Positions 4,749 to 13,960 of a DNA stretch of 64,000 nucleotides are shown here, in pieces. The notes under the pieces were generated by a model. That model saw only the letters and a list, made by a program, of their open reading frames with translations. It searched no databases and was not told where the DNA came from. The stretch lies in NCBI GenBank assembly GCA_947452555.1, contig CANGDH010000004.1:53553-117552 (forward strand), given 5' to 3'. Made by a program: the position numbers and the translations under genes. The first letter of the stretch is position 1. Each line of letters starts with the position of its first letter. This DNA comes from Bacteroidota bacterium. Lineage in GTDB: Bacteria; Bacteroidota; Bacteroidia; Chitinophagales; Chitinophagaceae.

Positions 4749-6086
4749 CTAGATATTTAATAATAACTGGATTTGTTTGTCAACTTTAACAATTTCCATA
4801 CTATCTAATACCTTGTTCATTTCTGAGGCTATTTGTGCAGTACAAAGATTACCTATGCTACCTTCATGTGTATGAGCTAGCTGTGTAGAATAAGTGAATT
4901 TTTCTGCTTCAATGGCTAATCCCACTTGCTTGTATGCATCTCTAAAAGGTGTACCAGTATTAACCAATTTATTAACTTCCTCAACGCTAAATAGAAATTG
5001 ATATTTAGGGTCTTCTAATAAGTCCTTTTTGACATGCATATTCTCAATCATCAAGCAGGCCATTTCAATACAATTTTTTAATTGCGTGAATGCTGGAAAT
5101 AAATGCTCTTTCAATAATTGTAAATCACGATGATAACCAGAAGGCAAATTCGTTGTCATCATCATAATTTCATTAGGCAATGCTTTAATGCGATTACAAT
5201 AAGATCGAATTAGCTCAAAAACATCTGGATTTTTTTTATGCGGCATAATACTGGATCCTGTCGTCAACTCTTCTGGGAAACTAATAAAGCCAAAATTTTG
5301 ATTTAAGAACAAACATGCATCCATACTTAATCTAGACAACGTGTCTGCAATATTAGCCATAGCCATAGCAGTTACACGCTCTGCCTTACCTCTTCCCATT
5401 TGAGCATAAACTACATTATAGTTGAGGGTGTCAAAACCTAATAGTTCAGTTGTTCTAGTTCTATTAATAGGAAAAGAAGATCCGTAACCTGCTGCAGAAC
5501 CTAATGGATTTTTATTCACCACTTTGTAGGCGGCTTGTAACATAGTCATGTCATCCACCAAACTTTCTGCATAAGCCCCTAACCATAATCCGAAAGAAGA
5601 AGGCATTGCTAATTGCAAATGTGTGTAGCCAGGTAGTAAATCAGATTTATACGTCTCGCTTTTCCCTTGTAATAATTTAAAAAAAGTTTCAACTGCAGTT
5701 GTTAATGAAATTATTTCTGCACGTAAGAATAATTTAATGTCCACTAAAACTTGATCATTCCTACTCCTAGCACTGTGTATTTTTTTACCAATATCGCCCA
5801 ATTTAGCAGTCAATAACATCTCTACCTGAGAGTGAATATCTTCCACTCCTTCGTCTAAACTAAAATCTCCTTTTTGTATAGTTTGATAAATCTCAACAAG
5901 CGCTGCTTTAAGTTGTACTTGTTCTTCCTTAGTCAGTAAGCCCACTTCGGATAACATGGTTGTATGTGCAATAGAACCTAGCACATCATAAGCAGCTAGA
6001 TACTTGTCCATTGCCTGGTCATTACCAATGGTAAATTTTTCAACAGCAGCTGCTACTTTACTATTCTTTTGCCAAAGCTTACTCAT
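4749..6086 (-). CDS. argH: Argininosuccinate lyase
   Basis: EDIHS, HSARSRNDQV, PGYTHLQ, GSSIMPHKKNPD. Start moved to MSKLWQK (6086), which overlaps the argE stop (ATGAGTAA). Confidence 0.96.
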   Translation of the reverse strand: MSKLWQKNSKVAAAVEKFTIGNDQAMDKYLAAYDVLGSIAHTTMLSEVGLLTKEEQVQLKAALVEIYQTIQKGDFSLDEGVEDIHSQVEMLLTAKLGDIGKKIHSARSRNDQVLVDIKLFLRAEIISLTTAVETFFKLLQGKSETYKSDLLPGYTHLQLAMPSSFGLWLGAYAESLVDDMTMLQAAYKVVNKNPLGSAAGYGSSFPINRTRTTELLGFDTLNYNVVYAQMGRGKAERVTAMAMANIADTLSRLSMDACLFLNQNFGFISFPEELTTGSSIMPHKKNPDVFELIRSYCNRIKALPNEIMMMTTNLPSGYHRDLQLLKEHLFPAFTQLKNCIEMACLMIENMHVKKDLLEDPKYQFLFSVEEVNKLVNTGTPFRDAYKQVGLAIEAEKFTYSTQLAHTHEGSIGNLCTAQIASEMNKVLDSMEIVKVDKQIQLLLNI

Positions 6087-7185
6087 AATATAAAATGTTT
6101 TCAAGTAATTCAATATAGGTTACTATTCCATCCTCGATTTCTTTTATAAATATATATTCGTCCGCAGTATGACTTCTTGCAGAATCTCCAGGTCCCATTT
6201 TTAAAGTTGGGAATTTCATTAATGCTTTGTCTGAGGTAGTAACAGAACCGTAATACCCTTTTCCAAGTGCCAAGCCAGCTTTAATAATTGGGTGTTCTAA
6301 TGCAATACCTGTGGACCTCATTCTTAAACTGCGTGGTGTTACAGTAGCCCCTACATGCTGATTAATTGTTGCTAGTATTTCTTCAAAACTATATAATTCA
6401 TTGACTCTAACATCCACTACCATCTTGCAAGTTGAAGGAACGACATTATGTTGTTTATTGTCTGTTTCAATTACAGTTACTGTCATTTTCACTGCGCCTA
6501 ACAATTCAGAAACCTTCTCAAATTTAAAAGTTCTAAACCATTCAAGGTCAGGTAAAATTTGATAAAGCGCATTCTCTCCTTCGTCTCTTGCAGCATGCCC
6601 TGCTTTGCCAGTAGCCACCACATCCAAAACCATTAAGCCTCTTTCTGCAATAGCCATTTCTAATAAAGTCGGCTCCCCTACTATACCAAATTCAATACTA
6701 GGTAATGAATGTAACACTAATTCGATTCCGTTTTGTCCTGAAATTTCTTCCTCGGCAGAAGCCACAAACACTATATTATAAGGCAAATCTTTTTTATCAT
6801 AATAGAATAAAAAAGTGGCCATTAAACTCACTAAACATCCTCCAGCATCATTACTACCTAAGCCATATATTTTACCATCGTGTTCAAATGGACTAAATGG
6901 TTCAAAAGTGTAGCCTTTGTTTGGCTTTACGGTATCATGATGTGAATTCAATAAAATTGATTTTTTATTCACATCAAAGTATAGATTAGTAGCCCAAATA
7001 TTATTTTTAATACGCTCCGTTTTAATACCATGTTCTTTGAGAAATCGCTCAATTATGACAGCGGTTTGATCTTCCTCTTTACTAAAAGAAGGGATTGCAA
7101 TTAATGTTTTTAATAAATCGATGGCATCTATCTGTAGTGCCTTTATAGATTCTATATTATTGTTTATGTAATTGTTTTGTGACAT
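6079..7185 (-). CDS. argE: M20 family N-acyl-ornithine/citrulline deacylase (ArgE-like)
   Basis: LNSHHDTV, GLGSNDAGG, EEE, GEPT, GHAA, SHTADE motifs; located in the arg operon. Confidence 0.85.
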   Translation of the reverse strand: MSQNNYINNNIESIKALQIDAIDLLKTLIAIPSFSKEEDQTAVIIERFLKEHGIKTERIKNNIWATNLYFDVNKKSILLNSHHDTVKPNKGYTFEPFSPFEHDGKIYGLGSNDAGGCLVSLMATFLFYYDKKDLPYNIVFVASAEEEISGQNGIELVLHSLPSIEFGIVGEPTLLEMAIAERGLMVLDVVATGKAGHAARDEGENALYQILPDLEWFRTFKFEKVSELLGAVKMTVTVIETDNKQHNVVPSTCKMVVDVRVNELYSFEEILATINQHVGATVTPRSLRMRSTGIALEHPIIKAGLALGKGYYGSVTTSDKALMKFPTLKMGPGDSARSHTADEYIFIKEIEDGIVTYIELLENILYYE

Positions 7186-7967
7186 TAGTTTTTGATTGTG
7201 GTACCAGCTGTACCGTTAATTAATTCATTCATTTTTTCTGCCTTGCCAATGATGACTGATTGTACACCACCGTCTAGGGCTAAATAAGCATTGTCGATTT
7301 TGGGCACCATTCCTTCGAAGATGATTTTATCTTCTTTTAGTTTGGCGTAACTGGGTCTATCGATTTTTGCTATGACTGAACTGGGGTCATTCATGTCTAC
7401 TAAGACCCCTTCTTTTTCAAAACCATATATCAAATGCACATCATAAATTCCCGCCAATGCAGTAGCAATACTTTGTGCAATTGTGTCTGCATTTGTATTT
7501 AATAATTGTCCATTAGCGTCATGGGTAATAGGAGCAACTACTAATCTAATATTATTTGAAAGTAAAACTTGAATTAAATCAACATTTACTTTATCAACGT
7601 CTCCTACAAATCCATAATCTATTTTAGCATTTACTCTTTTATGAGCTTGTATTAAATTCCCATCGGCTCCTGTTAAGCCTAAAGCATTTACCCCTAGGCC
7701 TTGTAATTGTGCAACAATATTTTTATTAATATGGCCTGCATAGACCATTGTTACAATTTTCAAAGTTGCTTCGTCTGTAATTCTTCTCCCTTCCATCATG
7801 GTTTGCGCTACCCCCATGGAACTGGCTAAACTAGTAGCCAATTTTCCACCACCGTGCACTAAAATAGCCTGCCCCTTTATGGTAGCAAAAGCTGCTAGGC
7901 ATTCTGTTAACAACGCTGGGTTGTCAACAATATTACCTCCTATTTTAATGACGTATAATGATTCCAT
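7185..7967 (-). CDS. argB: Acetylglutamate (acylglutamate) kinase
   Basis: VIKIGG, VHGGG, GRRITD, GFVGDV, NTNADT, GMVPK. Confidence 0.95.
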   Translation of the reverse strand: MESLYVIKIGGNIVDNPALLTECLAAFATIKGQAILVHGGGKLATSLASSMGVAQTMMEGRRITDEATLKIVTMVYAGHINKNIVAQLQGLGVNALGLTGADGNLIQAHKRVNAKIDYGFVGDVDKVNVDLIQVLLSNNIRLVVAPITHDANGQLLNTNADTIAQSIATALAGIYDVHLIYGFEKEGVLVDMNDPSSVIAKIDRPSYAKLKEDKIIFEGMVPKIDNAYLALDGGVQSVIIGKAEKMNELINGTAGTTIKN

Positions 7968-8028
7968 AATTTGAACGCTTGTTACCTATAAGTTGAATGG
8001 CTATTTTTGTGAAATACAAATAGCTATT

Positions 8029-9012
8029 TTATTTTATTTTATTATTGATTGATTCTAAAATTTCAGCCAATACCGCCTGTGCTGCCCATACTCTATTGGA
8101 AGCTTCCTTAGTTACTAAACTATTTGTGCCGTCCAAAATTTCATCACTCAATTCCACATTACGACGAACAGGTAAACAATGCATCACTTTAGCATTATTG
8201 GTTTGTGCTAATTTTTCGTTAGTCAACATCCAGTTAGCGTCCGTACAAGCTACTTTTCCATATTCCTTAAAGCTACTCCAGTTTTTTACATATACAAAAT
8301 CAGCGTCTTTCAAGGCAGCAGCTTGATTGTTTGTGATAGTTGCACCATTTGTGTATTCTTCTGAAAGCTCATATCCTTCGGGGTGTGTTATCACAAAATC
8401 TGCTTCTCCCCATGCAGTCATCCATTGGCTAAAACTATTAGCCACGCATTGAGGAATTGGTTTTATATGAGGCGCCCAGGTTAACACAATCTTAGGCTTT
8501 TTATTTGTTAACTGCTTATTCTGAGCCATTGACTCATTGATTGTAATGAGGTCCGTTAAAGATTGCAAAGGATGCAATGTTGCAGACTCTAAACTAATAA
8601 CAGGAATTGCAGCGTATTTTATAAATTGATGTATAATTTTTTCTGCATAATCGTCCTCTCTGTTTTGTAAACTTGGAAAAGTACGTATACATAAAACATC
8701 GAAATAGTTGCCTAAAATAGGCGCAGCGTCTTTAATATGCTCCACTGTAATTCCATTCATAATGGCACCTTCTGTAAATTCCAATGCCCAGCCTTCTTTG
8801 TCTACATTAAAAACAATGGGTTCCATACCCAAGTTCTGCGCAGCCACTTGTGTACTAAGTCTTGTTCTTAAACTTGGATTCAAAAAAAGTAATCCAATTC
8901 TTTTATTAGCCCCTAATGCTTTATCCACTAACGGGTCGGCTTTGTATGCCAACGCTTTTTTTACTAATGCATTAACATCACTCACATCCTTTACTGAAAT
9001 AAACTGCTTCAT
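8029..9012 (-). CDS. argF: N-acylornithine carbamoyltransferase ArgF', predicted N-succinylornithine type
   Basis: SLRT carbamoyl-phosphate motif, HPLQ, TWAPH, KNW, HCLPVRRNVE of AOTCase/SOTCase; specificity position reads TVEH (Val, not Glu). Confidence 0.9.
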   Translation of the reverse strand: MKQFISVKDVSDVNALVKKALAYKADPLVDKALGANKRIGLLFLNPSLRTRLSTQVAAQNLGMEPIVFNVDKEGWALEFTEGAIMNGITVEHIKDAAPILGNYFDVLCIRTFPSLQNREDDYAEKIIHQFIKYAAIPVISLESATLHPLQSLTDLITINESMAQNKQLTNKKPKIVLTWAPHIKPIPQCVANSFSQWMTAWGEADFVITHPEGYELSEEYTNGATITNNQAAALKDADFVYVKNWSSFKEYGKVACTDANWMLTNEKLAQTNNAKVMHCLPVRRNVELSDEILDGTNSLVTKEASNRVWAAQAVLAEILESINNKIK

Positions 9013-9016
9013 TCGC

Positions 9017-10168
9017 TTAATCTTTCTTTTGCGTCATTTGTTGAATCGCTACATTCAACCCTGTTAAAAATAAATCTATGTCTTCCATCGAAATTGCTAA
9101 GGAAGGAAGTAAACGTATTACATTTGGCTTTGCTTCGCCCGTAAATATTTTAAAGTCATTTAGTAAAACTTTTTTAAGGTCTTGTAAATGATCCTCCATT
9201 TCAAATCCAATCATTAACCCTCTTCCTCTTACTACTTTCACCCCAGGAGTGTTTCTTAAAGCATTAATTAAATAAGCCCCCTTCTCTGCTGCTGCTTTGA
9301 TTAATTGATCTTGTTGCATAACTTCTATTACTGCTAATGCTGCTGCACATGCTAATGGGTTCCCTCCAAATGTGGTACCTAGCATGCCAAACTTAGCTTG
9401 AATATGTGGCGCAATTAATATTCCACCAATTGGAAAACCATTCCCCATTCCCTTTGCCATTGAATAAATATCAGCATTTACCCCTGCATGATCATGCGCA
9501 AAGAACTGACCAGTTCGACCATACCCACATTGCACACTATCTGCTATATATACAGCACCAAAATTGTCACAACATTTTCTGATAGCTTGTAAGAATTCAT
9601 CACTTGCTTCATGGATTCCAGCAACCCCTTGTATTCCTTCTATAATTACGGCAGCAATTTCTGCGCCATGCTGATTAAAGCATGCTTGTAAAACTGAAAT
9701 ATCATTAAATGGTAAGAATATAATATTATCTGTTTCATTAACAGGTGCCACAATACTTGGATTATCTGTTGCAGCAACTGCTAAAGAAGTTCTTCCGTGA
9801 AATGACTTTTTAAAAGCAATTACCTTTTTTCTGCCAGTATGGAAAGAAGCTAATTTTAAAGCATTCTCATTTGCTTCTGCACCACTATTACATAAGAATA
9901 ATTGAAAATCTTTTTTACCACTTATTTCATTCAATGCGGTGGCTAATTCTTCTTGAATTGGCATGATTACAGAATTCGAATAAAATGCAATTGCATGTAA
10001 TTGATCCTCGATACGTTTTACCCAATGTGCTTGCGTATGACCAATACTAATTACAGCATGTCCACCATACATATCTAAATATACTTGTCCCTTGTCGTCC
10101 CATACGCGGCTACCAGCAGCTTTTGTGATTGCAATAGGGTTTAAGGGATAGACATTGAATAGCGACAT
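9017..10168 (-). CDS. argD: Acylornithine aminotransferase
   Basis: Class III PLP aminotransferase motifs NSGAEANE, SFHGRT, QCGYGRTG, AKGMGNGFPIG, TTFGGNP; arg operon context. Confidence 0.93.
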   Translation of the reverse strand: MSLFNVYPLNPIAITKAAGSRVWDDKGQVYLDMYGGHAVISIGHTQAHWVKRIEDQLHAIAFYSNSVIMPIQEELATALNEISGKKDFQLFLCNSGAEANENALKLASFHTGRKKVIAFKKSFHGRTSLAVAATDNPSIVAPVNETDNIIFLPFNDISVLQACFNQHGAEIAAVIIEGIQGVAGIHEASDEFLQAIRKCCDNFGAVYIADSVQCGYGRTGQFFAHDHAGVNADIYSMAKGMGNGFPIGGILIAPHIQAKFGMLGTTFGGNPLACAAALAVIEVMQQDQLIKAAAEKGAYLINALRNTPGVKVVRGRGLMIGFEMEDHLQDLKKVLLNDFKIFTGEAKPNVIRLLPSLAISMEDIDLFLTGLNVAIQQMTQKKD

Positions 10169-10227
10169 TAGTTATTTATTTAGAATTAAATTATTTATTA
10201 ATAAGCCAATTTAAGTAGGTTAATCAA

Positions 10228-11208
10228 TTAAAAATAGTTAGCCTTTAATTGTAAGCCAATTGTTTCAGTAAGTCCAAATAATAAGTTCATATTTTGTACT
10301 GCTTGTCCTACTGCACCTTTTAATAAATTATCTATTACAGAATGTATGGCCACCTTATTTCCTTGCTGCTCTATATGGATTAAGCATTTATTTGTATTCA
10401 CCACCTGCTTTAAATCGATATTGTTTTTACTTACATGTGTAAAAGGATGCCAATCATAAAATGTTTCATATAAATCATACAAATTTTCTAAAGGCTCATT
10501 TGTTGAAATAACAGAAGTCACAAAAATACCTCTTGTGAAATCACCTCTCCATGGTACAAAGTTTACTTGCGCATTATTATTCCCTTGTAATTGGTGTAAA
10601 TTTTGTTCAATTTCATGCAAGTGTTGATGTTGCAATGTTTTGTAGGCTTGAATATTATTAGCTCTCCAACTAAAATGGCTGGTAGCACTTAAACCTTGTC
10701 CTGCGCCAGTTGATCCTGTAATCCCTGTAGTATATACATCCCCTAAAATTCCTTTTTGTGCTAAAGGCAATAATCCTAGTTGAATCGCGGTTGCAAAACA
10801 ACCAGGGTTCGCAATATTTTGTGCAGTTTGAATAGCTTCTTTTTGCAATTCTGGTAAACCATATGTAAAATTTCTGTCTCCAATGCTGCTCTGTGCAGTT
10901 AATCTAAAATCCTGAGACAAGTCAATAATTTTAACTGATGATTTTATTTCGTTAGCTACTAAAAACTTTTTAGCAGCTCCATGCCCAACACATAAAAATA
11001 ATACATCAATGTCTTGATTCAAATCTGTACTGAAAACCAAACGTGTATCCCCCACTAAGTCTGCATGCACTTTACTCACTAATTCACCTGCGCTACTTGT
11101 ACTATGCACAAAAGCAATATTTGCATTAGGATGGCGCAATAATACACGTAGTAATTCACCACCTGTGTATCCTGCTCCTCCTACAATTCCAATATTAACT
11201 TTCTGCAT
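10228..11208 (-). CDS. argC: N-acetyl-gamma-glutamyl-phosphate reductase
   Basis: GGAGYTGGEL, DLSQDFR, YGLPE, IANPGCF, IDNLLKGAVGQAVQNMN. Confidence 0.96.
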   Translation of the reverse strand: MQKVNIGIVGGAGYTGGELLRVLLRHPNANIAFVHSTSSAGELVSKVHADLVGDTRLVFSTDLNQDIDVLFLCVGHGAAKKFLVANEIKSSVKIIDLSQDFRLTAQSSIGDRNFTYGLPELQKEAIQTAQNIANPGCFATAIQLGLLPLAQKGILGDVYTTGITGSTGAGQGLSATSHFSWRANNIQAYKTLQHQHLHEIEQNLHQLQGNNNAQVNFVPWRGDFTRGIFVTSVISTNEPLENLYDLYETFYDWHPFTHVSKNNIDLKQVVNTNKCLIHIEQQGNKVAIHSVIDNLLKGAVGQAVQNMNLLFGLTETIGLQLKANYF

Positions 11209-11250
11209 TTGTATTCATTTTATAATTTTCAATTACATCAAAAGATGTAT

Positions 11251-12450
11251 TTATTTTTTATTTGATTCCTTAATGTGATGGAATATGCTAGTTTGATTAC
11301 CAAATATTTTGGTAAAACCTCTAACATCAGCTCCGGTCCAGCCTGTATTCATTTCACCATATTTACCAAACTTAGCACTCATTAAGTCGTTTGGTGATTC
11401 AATTCCAATTACTTGAAAACGATATGGATTTAAATGAATAAAAACATCTCCTGTAACTTGCTCTTGCGAGCTAGTGAGAAACGCTTCCATATCACGCATT
11501 ACTGGATCTAAAATTTGACCCTCATGCAACCAGTTACCATAAAACTGTGCTAGCTGATCCTTCCATGACAGTTGCCATTTAGTTAACACATGTTTTTCTA
11601 AAGCATGATGCGCCTTTAAAATCACCATTGGTGCAGCTGCTTCAAAACCAACGCGACCTTTAATACCAATAATGGTATCTCCCACATGAATGTCTCTCCC
11701 AATTCCATAAGGTCCAACTATAGATTGTATGTATTGAATAGCTTGGGTTGGATGCTCGAATGTTTTTTTATTTACTGTTTTAATTTCTCCTATCTCAAAA
11801 CCAATAATTAATTCTTCTTCTTGACCTTCTTTTGTCATCTGTGTTGGCCATGCAGATTCTGGTAACATTCCTTTTGAATTTAATGTTTCCTTCCCACCAA
11901 CACTAGTACCCCATAATCCTTTATTAATAGAATACGCTGCTTTTTCAAAATTCATTGCAACACCTTTCTCTTTCAAATATTCAATCTCTGCTTCTCTACT
12001 TAATTGTAAATCACGGATAGGTGTCAATATTTCAACACCAGGAATCATGATTTGAAAAATCATGTCAAAACGAACCTGATCATTACCCGCACCTGTGCTT
12101 CCATGTGCAACTAATTTAGCGCCCATTTTTTTAACATGTGCCGCAATATGTAAAGCTTGACTTAAACGCTCTGCACTCACACTTAGTGGGTAAGTATTGT
12201 TCTTCAAAACATTACCATAAATCAAATATTTAATAATACTATCATAATATCCTTTTACAGCGTCTACAGTTGTGTGTGTTTTTACCCCTAAAGCATACGC
12301 ATGTGCTTCTACTTTTTTTAATTCTTCCTCGGTAAAGCCACCTGTATTTACTACTACGCTATGCACTTCTAAACCTTTGTCTTCTGTCAAATACTTTACA
12401 CAAAACGTAGTGTCTAAACCACCACTAAAACCCAAAACTACTTTTTCCAT
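11251..12450 (-). CDS. argG: Argininosuccinate synthase
   Basis: FSGGLDT, AHGSTGAGNDQVRF, GIKGR. Confidence 0.96.
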   Translation of the reverse strand: MEKVVLGFSGGLDTTFCVKYLTEDKGLEVHSVVVNTGGFTEEELKKVEAHAYALGVKTHTTVDAVKGYYDSIIKYLIYGNVLKNNTYPLSVSAERLSQALHIAAHVKKMGAKLVAHGSTGAGNDQVRFDMIFQIMIPGVEILTPIRDLQLSREAEIEYLKEKGVAMNFEKAAYSINKGLWGTSVGGKETLNSKGMLPESAWPTQMTKEGQEEELIIGFEIGEIKTVNKKTFEHPTQAIQYIQSIVGPYGIGRDIHVGDTIIGIKGRVGFEAAAPMVILKAHHALEKHVLTKWQLSWKDQLAQFYGNWLHEGQILDPVMRDMEAFLTSSQEQVTGDVFIHLNPYRFQVIGIESPNDLMSAKFGKYGEMNTGWTGADVRGFTKIFGNQTSIFHHIKESNKK

Positions 12451-12455
12451 AATAT

Positions 12456-13103
12456 TTATTTTTTTCTAAACCAGTTCAATAATTTACTTTGTTTTATTTT
12501 CATAAAACGCTCGTATAGTTTAGACTTATTTTTAAATGCTGCTTCTACTTGATCCGGAGTATGTAAACTCTTTGGCTCATACAACATAGCAGTACACATA
12601 CAATTTTTACGATCCTTGCTCATTAATATTTCATAATTCACACAGTTCTTACAGCCTGCCCAAAATTCTTCGTCGTCAGTTAATTCACTGTAAGTAACAG
12701 GCTCGTAGCCCAATTCGCTATTGATTTTCATAACCGCTAATCCTGTTGTCAATCCAAAAATTTTAGCAGTTGGATATTTCTCTCTTGACAATTGGAAAAT
12801 AGTTTGCTTGATTTTTTTTGCAATTCCTGTTTTTCTAAATGCAGGCGCAACGATTAATCCACTATTCGCTACAAACTGACCATGTTGCCAAGCTTCTATA
12901 TAACAAAAGCCAACCCATGCTCCGTCCTCGGTATGTGCAATTACTGCTTTACCTTCTTCTATTTTTTGTGCAACATATGCTGGACTTCTTTTAGCAATTC
13001 CGGTTCCTCGTGCCTTTGCTGAAGATTCCATCTCGTCTGTGATGGCTTTAGCATATGAAATATCACCACTATGGGCTACACGTACTATGATTTTCTGTTC
13101 CAA
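12456..13103 (-). CDS. GNAT acyltransferase, Bacteroidota-type N-acylglutamate synthase (ArgA'-like), first gene of arg operon
   Basis: SAKARGTGIAKRS, GFCYIE, NSGLIV..FRKTGIA, FWAGCKNC..CMCTAM; the family is found at the head of Bacteroidota arg operons. TTG start. Confidence 0.8.
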   Translation of the reverse strand: MEQKIIVRVAHSGDISYAKAITDEMESSAKARGTGIAKRSPAYVAQKIEEGKAVIAHTEDGAWVGFCYIEAWQHGQFVANSGLIVAPAFRKTGIAKKIKQTIFQLSREKYPTAKIFGLTTGLAVMKINSELGYEPVTYSELTDDEEFWAGCKNCVNYEILMSKDRKNCMCTAMLYEPKSLHTPDQVEAAFKNKSKLYERFMKIKQSKLLNWFRKK

Positions 13104-13118
13104 TGATAGATAAAATTT

Positions 13119-13335
13119 AAAAAAATGACACTTCTGGCTTCAAAAGACAATTTCGGGGCTTTTTCCACTGATAGGGGCAAGTGCCAATTGCTCGTCCTAT
13201 CAGAATCCACGTCGGTAGAAAGATCTACCCAACTGGGGCAACCTGATAGGGCTGTTCAAAACAGGAACAGATGCAGCAATTGCATGTGTAGATAAGATAT
13301 GTAATGTTTCCTGTTTCATTTATAATTTCCTGTTT
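13119..13335 (-). promoter_or_regulatory. Structured 5' leader of arg operon, candidate attenuator
   Basis: 58/120 G+C in 13141-13260 versus 32/120 in 13381-13500; several complementary 8-10-mers; U7 tract at 13125-13119. Confidence 0.65.
13200..13319 (-). CDS. Putative arg operon leader peptide, 39 aa: MKQETLHILSTHAIAASVPVLNSPIRLPQLGRSFYRRGF
   Basis: ATG at 13319 to TGA at 13200 in an A/T-rich start context; all four Arg codons lie in the last 14 codons; ends 96 nt before argA'. Below the ORF track size cutoff. Confidence 0.65.
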   Translation of the reverse strand: MKQETLHILSTHAIAASVPVLNSPIRLPQLGRSFYRRGF

Positions 13336-13511
13336 AGGAATGAGATAGTAAAAATAGGCAATTAAATAGACAATTTAGGCCTATTTAGGCTTATAATTTG
13401 AGCTCAAGGAGAAATGAAAGCGACAAAATGAATAAAAATAATAAATGTTAGTTTTTATATGATGCTAAGGAATCGTAATTTTAATGCAAACTCAACCATA
13501 ACAATAGCCTT

Positions 13512-13829
13512 ATGAGAAAATTATTCATTATTATGTTAAGCACTTCATGTGTTTTATTTCTAGCCGCTTGCGAAACTAGTTCCACGCAACAAAAAGCAGC
13601 AACAGCAACTATAGATTCAGCTGTTAATAAAATTGACACCGCCGAGAAAACTTATGATGTCAAATTAGTAGACAATAAAAAAGATCCTACATGTGGAATG
13701 CCAGTAACTGCAGGAATTAGTGATACCGCACATTATGAAAATAAAGTTTTAGGATTTTGTTCTACTGAGTGTAAGAATGAATTTTTAAAAAACCCAAAAG
13801 CAAATATTGCAGCTGCTGAATTAAAATAA
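13512..13829 (+). CDS. YHS/TRASH metal-binding domain lipoprotein
   Basis: Lipobox LAA-C; DPTCGM and GFCSTECK..F.KNP motifs. Confidence 0.85.
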   Translation: MRKLFIIMLSTSCVLFLAACETSSTQQKAATATIDSAVNKIDTAEKTYDVKLVDNKKDPTCGMPVTAGISDTAHYENKVLGFCSTECKNEFLKNPKANIAAAELK

Positions 13830-13881
13830 TAGGAAGCAGATGGCATAAAATAAATATGTTTTAAAAAGAATAGGTTTAAAC

Positions 13882-13915
13882 AAAAAAGAGTTCCCAAATA
13901 GGAACTCTTTTTTTT
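13882..13915. terminator. Bidirectional intrinsic terminator
   Basis: AAAAAAGAGTTCC-caaata-GGAACTCTTTTTTTT between convergent genes. Confidence 0.85.
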
Positions 13916-13960
13916 GGCTACTTACTTTTTCAAGCTACTTTCAACTCTAGCTAGAAAGAC

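What the first reader, a model, noticed from the sequence alone, without database searches (positions are those of the whole stretch)
13119..13250. Mutually exclusive RNA helices overlapping the Arg codons, leader stop and a U7 tract
Seen (minus-strand mRNA): CCUAUCAG occurs twice (13250-13243, covering Arg codon 26; and 13175-13168). Its perfect complement CUGAUAGG lies between them, across the leader stop (13203-13196), so 1:2 and 2:3 helices compete. The 1:2 helix encloses GGUAGA-UCUU-UCUACC, covering Arg 32 next to the CGA-CGU pair. UGGCACUU (13186-13179), inside the 2:3 hairpin, can pair with AAGUGUCA (13133-13126), which is immediately followed by UUUUUUU and then, 15 nt later, the UUG start. 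Inference: protector/antiterminator/terminator logic of an attenuator. The terminator-like helix has an atypically large interior, so translational or Rho-dependent control is also possible.
Basis: partly seen in the sequence, partly recalled or inferred. Interest (0 to 1): 0.75.

Follow-up and report, generated by a model that had tools for sequence, protein, structure and literature searches.

The report
Arginine-sensing leader hairpin before arg operon
In front of this freshwater bacterium's arginine-synthesis genes, a tiny upstream gene ends in two uncommon arginine codons and stops inside a conserved RNA hairpin, so ribosomes probably report arginine shortage by leaving the hairpin shut or opening it; I found no published case of this control for arginine synthesis.

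Summary
In this genome the 1:2 + 3:4 fold is the minimum-energy fold of the untranslated RNA, and the 2:3 helix holds only until the ribosome nears the stop. Comparison changes the picture. Only the 2:3 hairpin (P1, containing the leader's UGA, plus an inner stem P2) is conserved and covaries. It is single-copy, found only in Chitinophagaceae, and lies about 100 nt before the arg operon. Segment 1 is exact in 2 of 114 loci. The conserved long-range partner of the loop is the neighbouring GCCA; another clade swaps to ACC/GGU with compensatory changes. ArgR was not found in 151 family genomes; Rho is present; a C-rich tract is half-buried in P1. Best reading: an arginine-codon leader-peptide attenuator (about 0.8) whose output is probably Rho-dependent, as at mgtL or speFL (about 0.5 for the whole mechanism). 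No expression data were available. This scan noted the same element earlier in another Sediminibacterium (e1-5256778).

The parts
13349..13356 (-). Bacteroidota -7 promoter-like element (TAnnTTTG type, one mismatch); inferred start site near 13345
   Evidence: Sequence. The pattern occurs 80-190 nt before the leader stop in 130/191 loci, against 18/179 in a control window. Function not tested.
13200..13319 (-). Leader ORF, 39 aa, ending Arg-Arg-Gly-Phe-stop (UGA)
   Evidence: The frame is open for 20 or more codons before the stop in 215/216 loci. The N-terminal part varies in length and sequence. No Pfam or NCBIfam match.
13243..13250 (-). Segment 1, a copy of the P1 3' strand; lineage-specific competitor helix (1:2)
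   Evidence: Present; -26.3 kcal/mol hairpin. Exact in 2/114 loci; fully complementary in 7/37 close relatives.
13214..13229 (-). Inner hairpin over codons 31-35; seen only in this genome
   Evidence: The stretch differs or is deleted in the close relatives listed.
13209..13214 (-). Tandem control codons CGA-CGU (Arg36, Arg37), ending 5 nt before P1
   Evidence: CGA at stop-4 in 62/70 loci and Arg at stop-3 in 58/70, among loci selected by hairpin only. CGA is 7.7% of Arg codons in this genome.
13196..13203 (-).
   Evidence: 70/80 orthologous loci. Its one variable pair is U-A, C-G or U-G in all 183 unique loci; tree-aware p about 0.002.
13176..13195 (-). Conserved asymmetric internal loop (ACGA / C), inner stem P2 (13191-13188 with 13180-13177) and 7-nt apical loop (13187-13181)
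   Evidence: Two P2 pairs rank first and fourth in mutual information (94-96% canonical); tree-aware p 0.001 and 0.0003. The innermost pair does not covary (p 0.35).
13168..13175 (-).
13154..13167 (-). Conserved tail after P1: UG, purine, A-rich run, C tract (possible pause site or Rho-loading sequence)
   Evidence: UG directly follows P1 in all 111 loci listed; C at +12 in 93%. The window stop+25..+65 has C/G 2.1 and C>G in 100% of 164 loci.
13134..13138 (-). GCCAG, conserved long-range partner (P3) of the apical loop UUGGC (13187-13183)
   Evidence: GCCA in 36/37 close relatives; 4-bp core paired in 29/29 haplotypes. Another clade swaps to ACC/GGU at the same distance.
13126..13133 (-).
   Evidence: Fully paired in 4/29 haplotypes; an alternative register with the P2 5' strand is fully paired in 13/29.
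13119..13125 (-). U7 tract; U- or pyrimidine-rich in the close clade only
   Evidence: U7 in 11/37. Mean 5.0 U per 8 nt after P3 against 3.2 in controls. Best local hairpin before it is -2.2 kcal/mol.
12456..13103 (-). First regulated gene: GNAT N-acetyltransferase (probable ArgA-type), UUG start
   Evidence: PF00583 above cut-off. The role as glutamate acetylase is inferred from its position in the operon.
4749..12450 (-). Rest of the operon: argG, argC, argD, N-acetylornithine carbamoyltransferase (argF'), argB, argE-like deacylase, argH
   Evidence: NCBIfam best hits; argC, argB and argH are over the curated cut-off, the others under it.

Best explanation
An arginine-sensing, ribosome-controlled attenuator of the arg biosynthesis operon. 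Ribosomes translate the 39-codon leader. When charged tRNA-Arg (ACG anticodon) is scarce, they stall at CGA-CGU, just upstream of hairpin P1/P2. The hairpin stays closed, buries the first half of a C-rich tract, can dock its loop on GCCA about 30 nt downstream (P3), and transcription continues into the operon. When arginine is plentiful, the ribosome runs to the UGA, which lies inside P1, and melts it. The C-rich, weakly structured RNA downstream is exposed and Rho most likely terminates before or early in the GNAT gene. In this lineage segment 1 and the U-rich tract are probable add-ons that favour the OFF fold when the leader is not translated. Shown here: sequence, conservation, covariation of P1 and P2, ArgR not found, Rho present, predicted footprint switch. 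Inferred: translation of the leader, stalling, direction of regulation, Rho as effector, and whether P3 is a pseudoknot/kissing contact or an alternative helix.
For: Control codons are conserved at codon level while the rest of the peptide is not. CGA is uncommon (7.7% of Arg codons), and no tRNA-Arg(UCG) was found among 26 tRNAs; a TadA-like gene is present. The hairpin is single-copy, found only in the family, and upstream of the GNAT gene in 32/34 model-found loci, the other two at contig ends. ArgR domain in 0/151 family genomes with working controls; Rho present. Footprint folding switches P1 off between Arg37 and the stop. No intrinsic terminator in 114 loci. C>G in 100% of loci and 0.23 YC per nt just after the stop, against 50% and 0.06 in controls. 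Two other leader classes in the family (ending RRPRI and VRR) keep terminal CGA-CGN codons with unrelated RNA folds, and their C-rich zone lies in the 3' part of the leader. Precedent: a hairpin that includes the leader's 3' end plus Rho at speFL (10.1101/604074); stalling favours a Rho-resistant fold at mgtL and corL (PMC12360218).
Against: No transcript, ribosome-profiling or reporter data. In this genome the spacer from P1 to the start codon has equal C and G (0.156 each; C 0.20, G 0.15 if the P1 3' strand is included), so the rut signal is weak here. C-richness is partly built into the conserved helix and, in the other classes, into Pro/Arg codons. The composition control comes from one genome only. 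P1 could refold quickly after ribosome release, so the model needs a polymerase pause that I could not show (a Y-G step 12-13 nt after P1 in 94/183 loci, but no G at -10). The invariant unpaired bases (ACGA, UGRA) are not explained. P3 is missing in several lineages (4/31 of CUGGC-loop loci, none of 39 'other' loops with GCCA).
Confidence: 0.5

Rival explanations
1. Classical four-segment attenuator with an intrinsic terminator: the ribosome at the stop (or helix 1:2 without translation) frees the loop region, which pairs with 13138-13126 directly before the U tract and releases polymerase without Rho.
For: This is the minimum-energy fold of 13260-13119 here. It appears when the ribosome covers the stop (0.34-0.87). 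The close clade keeps up to 9 bp of long-range complementarity followed by 5.0 U per 8 nt.
Against: The helix has a 45-nt interior, -7.1 kcal/mol, and a U-A, G-C, G-U base. It is intact in 4/29 haplotypes. Segment 1 is exact in 2/114 loci. No canonical terminator in 114 loci, and the ACC/GGU clade shows no consistent U tract after its second hairpin. No within-clade covariation of this duplex (p 0.27).
Confidence: 0.18
2. Arginine sensing by the same leader, but with translational output: opening P1 changes access to the weak UUG/GUG start of the GNAT gene, or ribosomes reinitiate; any mRNA loss is secondary polarity.
For: The start codon is UUG or GUG in nearly all class-1 loci. P3 ends about 30 nt from the start. 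Precedent: S. aureus rbfL acts on translation (PMC13009471).
Against: The freed P1 3' strand pairs with the initiation region no better than with control regions (p 0.44 and 0.60). The stop lies 96 nt from the start, too far for direct occlusion.
Confidence: 0.13
3. The P1/P2/P3 RNA is a tertiary fold that binds arginine, a pathway intermediate or a protein, or acts as a ribosome roadblock that amplifies the CGA pause (riboswitch-attenuator hybrid).
For: Near-invariant unpaired bases. A loop-loop contact with all four Watson-Crick combinations at one position (22/47 against 9.6 expected; tree-aware p 0.003-0.004). An A-rich strand follows P1.
Against: Two other leader classes control the same gene without this fold. 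P3 is lost in several lineages. No Rfam match. Half of the loop-loop cells at the variable position are mismatches.
Confidence: 0.08
4. Nascent-peptide arrest (AAP-, TnaC- or SpeFL-type): free arginine or ornithine stalls the ribosome through the peptide sequence.
For: Conserved C-terminal residues and a conserved UGA, the rarest stop in this genome (48/1450).
Against: Only the last 4-6 residues are conserved, and length and N-terminus vary widely. CGA is kept at codon level over the common AGA.
Confidence: 0.06
5. Not regulatory for arginine: a constitutive stabilising hairpin or a DNA operator (inverted repeat), with the ORF a by-product.
For: P1 is also a perfect DNA inverted repeat with a mostly 20-bp spacer (155/183).
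Against: U-G wobble and compensatory pairs, a covarying inner stem and spacers of 18-22 nt point to RNA. An in-frame Arg pair occurs in three unrelated leader classes and in other families.
Confidence: 0.05

Closest known systems
Salmonella mgtA/mgtL and corA/corL uORF-controlled Rho-dependent attenuators (PMC12360218)
   Same: Stalling in a uORF favours a leader fold that resists Rho; full translation restructures the leader and unmasks a rut site; no intrinsic terminator.
   Different: The signal here is arginine codons and the target a biosynthetic operon in Bacteroidota. Rho involvement is inferred. No sequence relationship.
speFL and tnaC (10.1101/604074; PMC12360218)
   Same: At speFL a hairpin includes the 3' end of the leader ORF and is unwound by the ribosome at the stop; tandem rare Arg codons; Rho-dependent output.
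   Different: Those are arrest peptides induced by free ornithine or tryptophan, with conserved peptide sequence, turning catabolic genes on. Here only the terminal codons are conserved and starvation should turn expression on.
Classical leader-peptide attenuators trpL, hisL, pheL, thrL, leuL, ilvL; Bacteroid-trp leader (own knowledge)
   Same: uORF with codons for the pathway's end product near its stop, upstream of the biosynthetic operon; charged-tRNA sensing.
   Different: No conserved protector and no conserved intrinsic terminator. The conserved hairpin survives a stalled ribosome rather than being broken by it. No Rfam model matches.
S. aureus rbfL (PMC13009471) and E. coli argL-argF (10.1101/511675)
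   Same: Short uORFs linked to arginine: rbfL senses arginine through rare Arg codons; argL lies at an arg gene and lowers its expression.
   Different: Both overlap the downstream ribosome-binding site or gene start and act on translation. rbfL represses under starvation and controls a biofilm regulator. The passages read do not show argL sensing arginine.

Membership tests
Classical leader-peptide transcription attenuator (trp/his type) | Short uORF with tandem codons for the end-product amino acid upstream of its biosynthetic operon | tested here: met
Classical leader-peptide transcription attenuator (trp/his type) | Conserved mutually exclusive 1:2 and 2:3 helices | tested here: not met
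   2:3 is conserved; segment 1 is exact in 2/114 loci and fully complementary in 7/37 close relatives
Classical leader-peptide transcription attenuator (trp/his type) | Intrinsic terminator (stable short hairpin plus U tract) overlapping the antiterminator | tested here: not met
   0/114 loci at -8 kcal/mol or better; none found at the U tract by the pattern scan; the long-range substitute is intact in 4/29
Classical leader-peptide transcription attenuator (trp/his type) | Ribosome position switches the fold in the right direction | tested here: met
   In silico only: P1 holds with the A site on Arg26-Arg36 and is lost at the stop
uORF-controlled Rho-dependent attenuator (mgtL/corL/speFL type) | Rho encoded and no intrinsic terminator | tested here: met
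uORF-controlled Rho-dependent attenuator (mgtL/corL/speFL type) | C-rich, G-poor rut-like tract masked by structure or ribosome | tested here: inconclusive
   Strong family-wide bias, weak in this genome's spacer, and partly built into P1
uORF-controlled Rho-dependent attenuator (mgtL/corL/speFL type) | Premature termination relieved by bicyclomycin or Rho depletion | not testable with these tools
   Needs an experiment
Ligand-dependent arrest peptide (TnaC, SpeFL, AAP) | Conserved peptide sequence over the exit-tunnel length | tested here: not met
   Only the last 4-6 residues are conserved; no family match
Known Rfam cis-regulatory family or riboswitch | Match to a curated covariance model | tested here: not met
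   No hit over the leader at E<=1; none in five homologous loci at gathering score
ArgR-regulated arg operon | ArgR repressor encoded | tested here: not met
   PF01316 not found in G000 (90% complete) or in 150 family genomes

The most novel reading that the evidence does not exclude
The stop-codon hairpin and its loop-to-downstream contact form a pseudoknot or kissing-loop fold with invariant unpaired bases that binds arginine or a pathway intermediate, or acts as a ribosome roadblock. The leader would then be a riboswitch-attenuator hybrid and, to my knowledge, the first bacterial arginine-binding regulatory RNA.
Probability: 0.07. Interest if true: 0.9.

Novelty: new variant of a known kind. 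Interest (0 to 1): 0.58.

Why it matters
From my own knowledge, arginine biosynthesis is the textbook amino-acid pathway run by a repressor (ArgR) rather than by attenuation. In this family ArgR was not found, and it appears to use arginine-codon leader peptides instead, in at least three RNA designs before the same gene. The class studied here gives a compact RNA motif (about 70 nt), supported by covariation and absent from Rfam, with clear mutations to test. It would show how Bacteroidota couple translation to Rho and regulate amino-acid synthesis.

Tried and rejected
Rfam scans found nothing relevant. No RNA holder was listed for the stretch, so no reads were laid; this is no evidence on expression. 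Pairing of the P1 3' strand with the initiation region: no excess over controls. A second uORF in the -1 frame through the hairpin: an NUG start exists in only about half of loci, this genome has AUU, 28/183 loci have frame-breaking spacer lengths and 34% lack the stop; rejected. Stop read-through or frameshifting: no conserved downstream frame; not pursued. Consensus polymerase pause element: Y-G step present, G at -10 absent; inconclusive. Independent-pair tests on the tree were underpowered and none reached 0.05. The simulation test gave low p values, but one of two slid control pairs also scored p 0.003, so it overstates for columns with few changes; the loop-loop position (14-15 changes) and the P2 4-18 pair (9-11 changes) are the more reliable. 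My pattern enforced most of P1, so its invariance is partly circular; the non-circular counts are 70/80 protein-selected loci and the fifth pair, where a mismatch was allowed and never seen. Ten literature searches found no description of this element; the library lacks most subscription papers, including the Lopatovskaya 2010 attenuation survey. The sigma-70 promoter scan does not cover Bacteroidota promoters.

Full report
Setting. The finding lies in the leader of a minus-strand operon: GNAT acetyltransferase (13103-12456), argG, argC, argD, N-acetylornithine carbamoyltransferase, argB, an argE-like deacylase and argH. The closest homologues are Sediminibacterium-like Chitinophagaceae. A 39-codon ORF (13319-13200) ends Arg-Arg-Gly-Phe-UGA, 96 nt before the UUG start. 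A Bacteroidota -7 promoter-like element sits at 13356-13349; the pattern is enriched at this position across loci (130/191 against 18/179).

Observation. With ribosome footprints imposed, the 2:3 helix has probability 0.64-1.0 for most footprints with the A site on Arg26 to Arg36 (0.43-0.45 for the longer footprints at Arg32), depends on footprint length at Arg37, and is lost at the stop. The switch is therefore self-consistent on paper in this one genome.

What is conserved. Of 80 loci selected only by GNAT similarity, 70 carry the 2:3 hairpin (P1). The other ten are one truncated, one masked, one deleted and seven of a different leader class. A covariance model built from the core hit 46 of 150 family genomes once each, and none of 141 genomes from other families in a phylum sample. 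Of 34 model-found loci, 32 lie directly upstream of the GNAT gene and two end at contig breaks. The one variable P1 pair is U-A, C-G or U-G in all 183 unique loci, and two pairs of an inner stem P2 rank first and fourth in mutual information. Tree-aware simulations give p 0.0003-0.002 for these pairs, with the caveat that one slid control also scored 0.003 and independent-pair tests lacked power. The internal loop and the UG-purine-A tail with a C tract are conserved without obvious partners.

What is not conserved. Segment 1 is exact in 2 of 114 loci, and leaders show no general excess of complementarity to segment 2 (mean z -0.27). In the 37 closest relatives it is fully complementary in 7; given the local Pro-Ile-Arg, an exact copy arises 3% of the time from codon usage alone. 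No class-1 locus has a hairpin of -8 kcal/mol or better before a U tract; the best local one here is -2.2.

The P2 loop is complementary to the region 18-48 nt before the start more than permuted partners (z -7.1), and much less or not at all to five control windows (z -2.2 to +0.3; relatedness inflates this). In the window's clade the partner is GCCA (13138-13135): present in 36/37 loci, with the 4-bp core paired in 29/29 haplotypes and an optional extension onto the P2 5' strand. Within that clade the evidence is invariance only (p 0.27). In a second clade the loop reads N-ACC, and the partner GGU-N sits at the same distance in the loop of a small second hairpin. UGGC loops go with GCCA (42/73) and never with UGGU; UxACC loops go with UGGU (48/58) and once with GCCA. 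The variable position shows all four Watson-Crick pairs (22/47 against 9.6 expected; tree-aware p 0.003-0.004). This suggests a kissing-loop or pseudoknot contact, optional in some lineages. Whether it coexists with P2 or replaces it is open.

Sensor. In loci selected by hairpin only, CGA stands four codons before the stop in 62/70 and Arg three codons before in 58/70, while the rest of the peptide varies. CGA is 7.7% of Arg codons in the genome, no tRNA-Arg(UCG) was found (genome 90% complete, 26 tRNAs), and a TadA-like gene is present below the family cut-off, so CGA is probably read by inosine wobble (inference). Family members without this hairpin have leaders ending RRPRI (33 loci) or VRR (19 loci) with CGA-CGN codons and different RNA folds. 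Arg-ending uORFs also precede the gene in several other Bacteroidota families (not tested against chance). The ArgR domain was not found in 151 family genomes while the controls rang.

Output. Rho is encoded. The 40 nt from stop+25 to stop+65, which include the P1 3' strand, have C/G 2.1, C>G in all 164 loci and 0.23 YC per nt, against 1.1, 50% and 0.06 in upstream controls. In this genome's own spacer the bias is weak. Occlusion of the start site by the freed strand found no support. The simplest model is that a ribosome stalled at CGA-CGU leaves P1 closed and the C-rich tract masked, whereas a ribosome at the UGA opens it for Rho. This resembles mgtL and corL (PMC12360218) and the hairpin over the 3' end of speFL (10.1101/604074). 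In the window's clade a weak intrinsic signal from the long-range helix plus U-rich tract may contribute (5.0 U per 8 nt against 3.2).

Comparison and verdict. It works like a leader-peptide attenuator but fails two defining features of the trp/his class (conserved protector, intrinsic terminator), so I do not file it there. It has no Rfam model, and I found no paper on it. The nearest arginine-linked uORFs, rbfL and argL, act by overlap with the downstream start. This scan noted the same element before in another Sediminibacterium and analogous leaders in other Bacteroidota; those notes are not independent evidence. Arginine sensing through the leader: about 0.8. The whole mechanism with Rho: about 0.5. 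New variant of a known kind; interest 0.58.

Noticed in passing
window 13879-13916: Perfect bidirectional intrinsic terminator (hairpin flanked by A and U runs) between the convergent YHS-domain gene and the SNF2 helicase; it caused the weak Rfam hits and shows that this genome does use canonical terminators.
   Followed up: partly
window 13512-13829 (+): 105-aa probable lipoprotein with a YHS domain (PF04945, just under cut-off), divergent from the arg leader.
   Followed up: partly
L131-L155, L158, L173 and L156-L176: Two further leader classes before the same GNAT gene in Chitinophagaceae, ending RRPRI and VRR, each with its own downstream hairpins; all 19 VRR leaders counted end in UGA (the class pattern required it).
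   Followed up: partly
L299 (224 and 70 nt upstream of the GNAT gene): A genome from another family has two Arg-ending uORFs in the arg leader, as an earlier scan note describes for a flavobacterium.
   Followed up: no
L037 and L138: Two loci where the hairpin and most of the leader's end appear deleted, natural candidates for constitutive alleles.
   Followed up: no
G090, G084, G092, G044, G123, G139, G042, G028, G047, G009, G074, G140: A second, more distant GNAT paralogue (53-64% identity) exists in several family genomes; its context was not examined.
   Followed up: no
L047, L068, L130: Loci where the otherwise invariant internal loop of the hairpin is replaced while P1 is kept; L130 changes both loop and downstream partner together.
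   Followed up: partly
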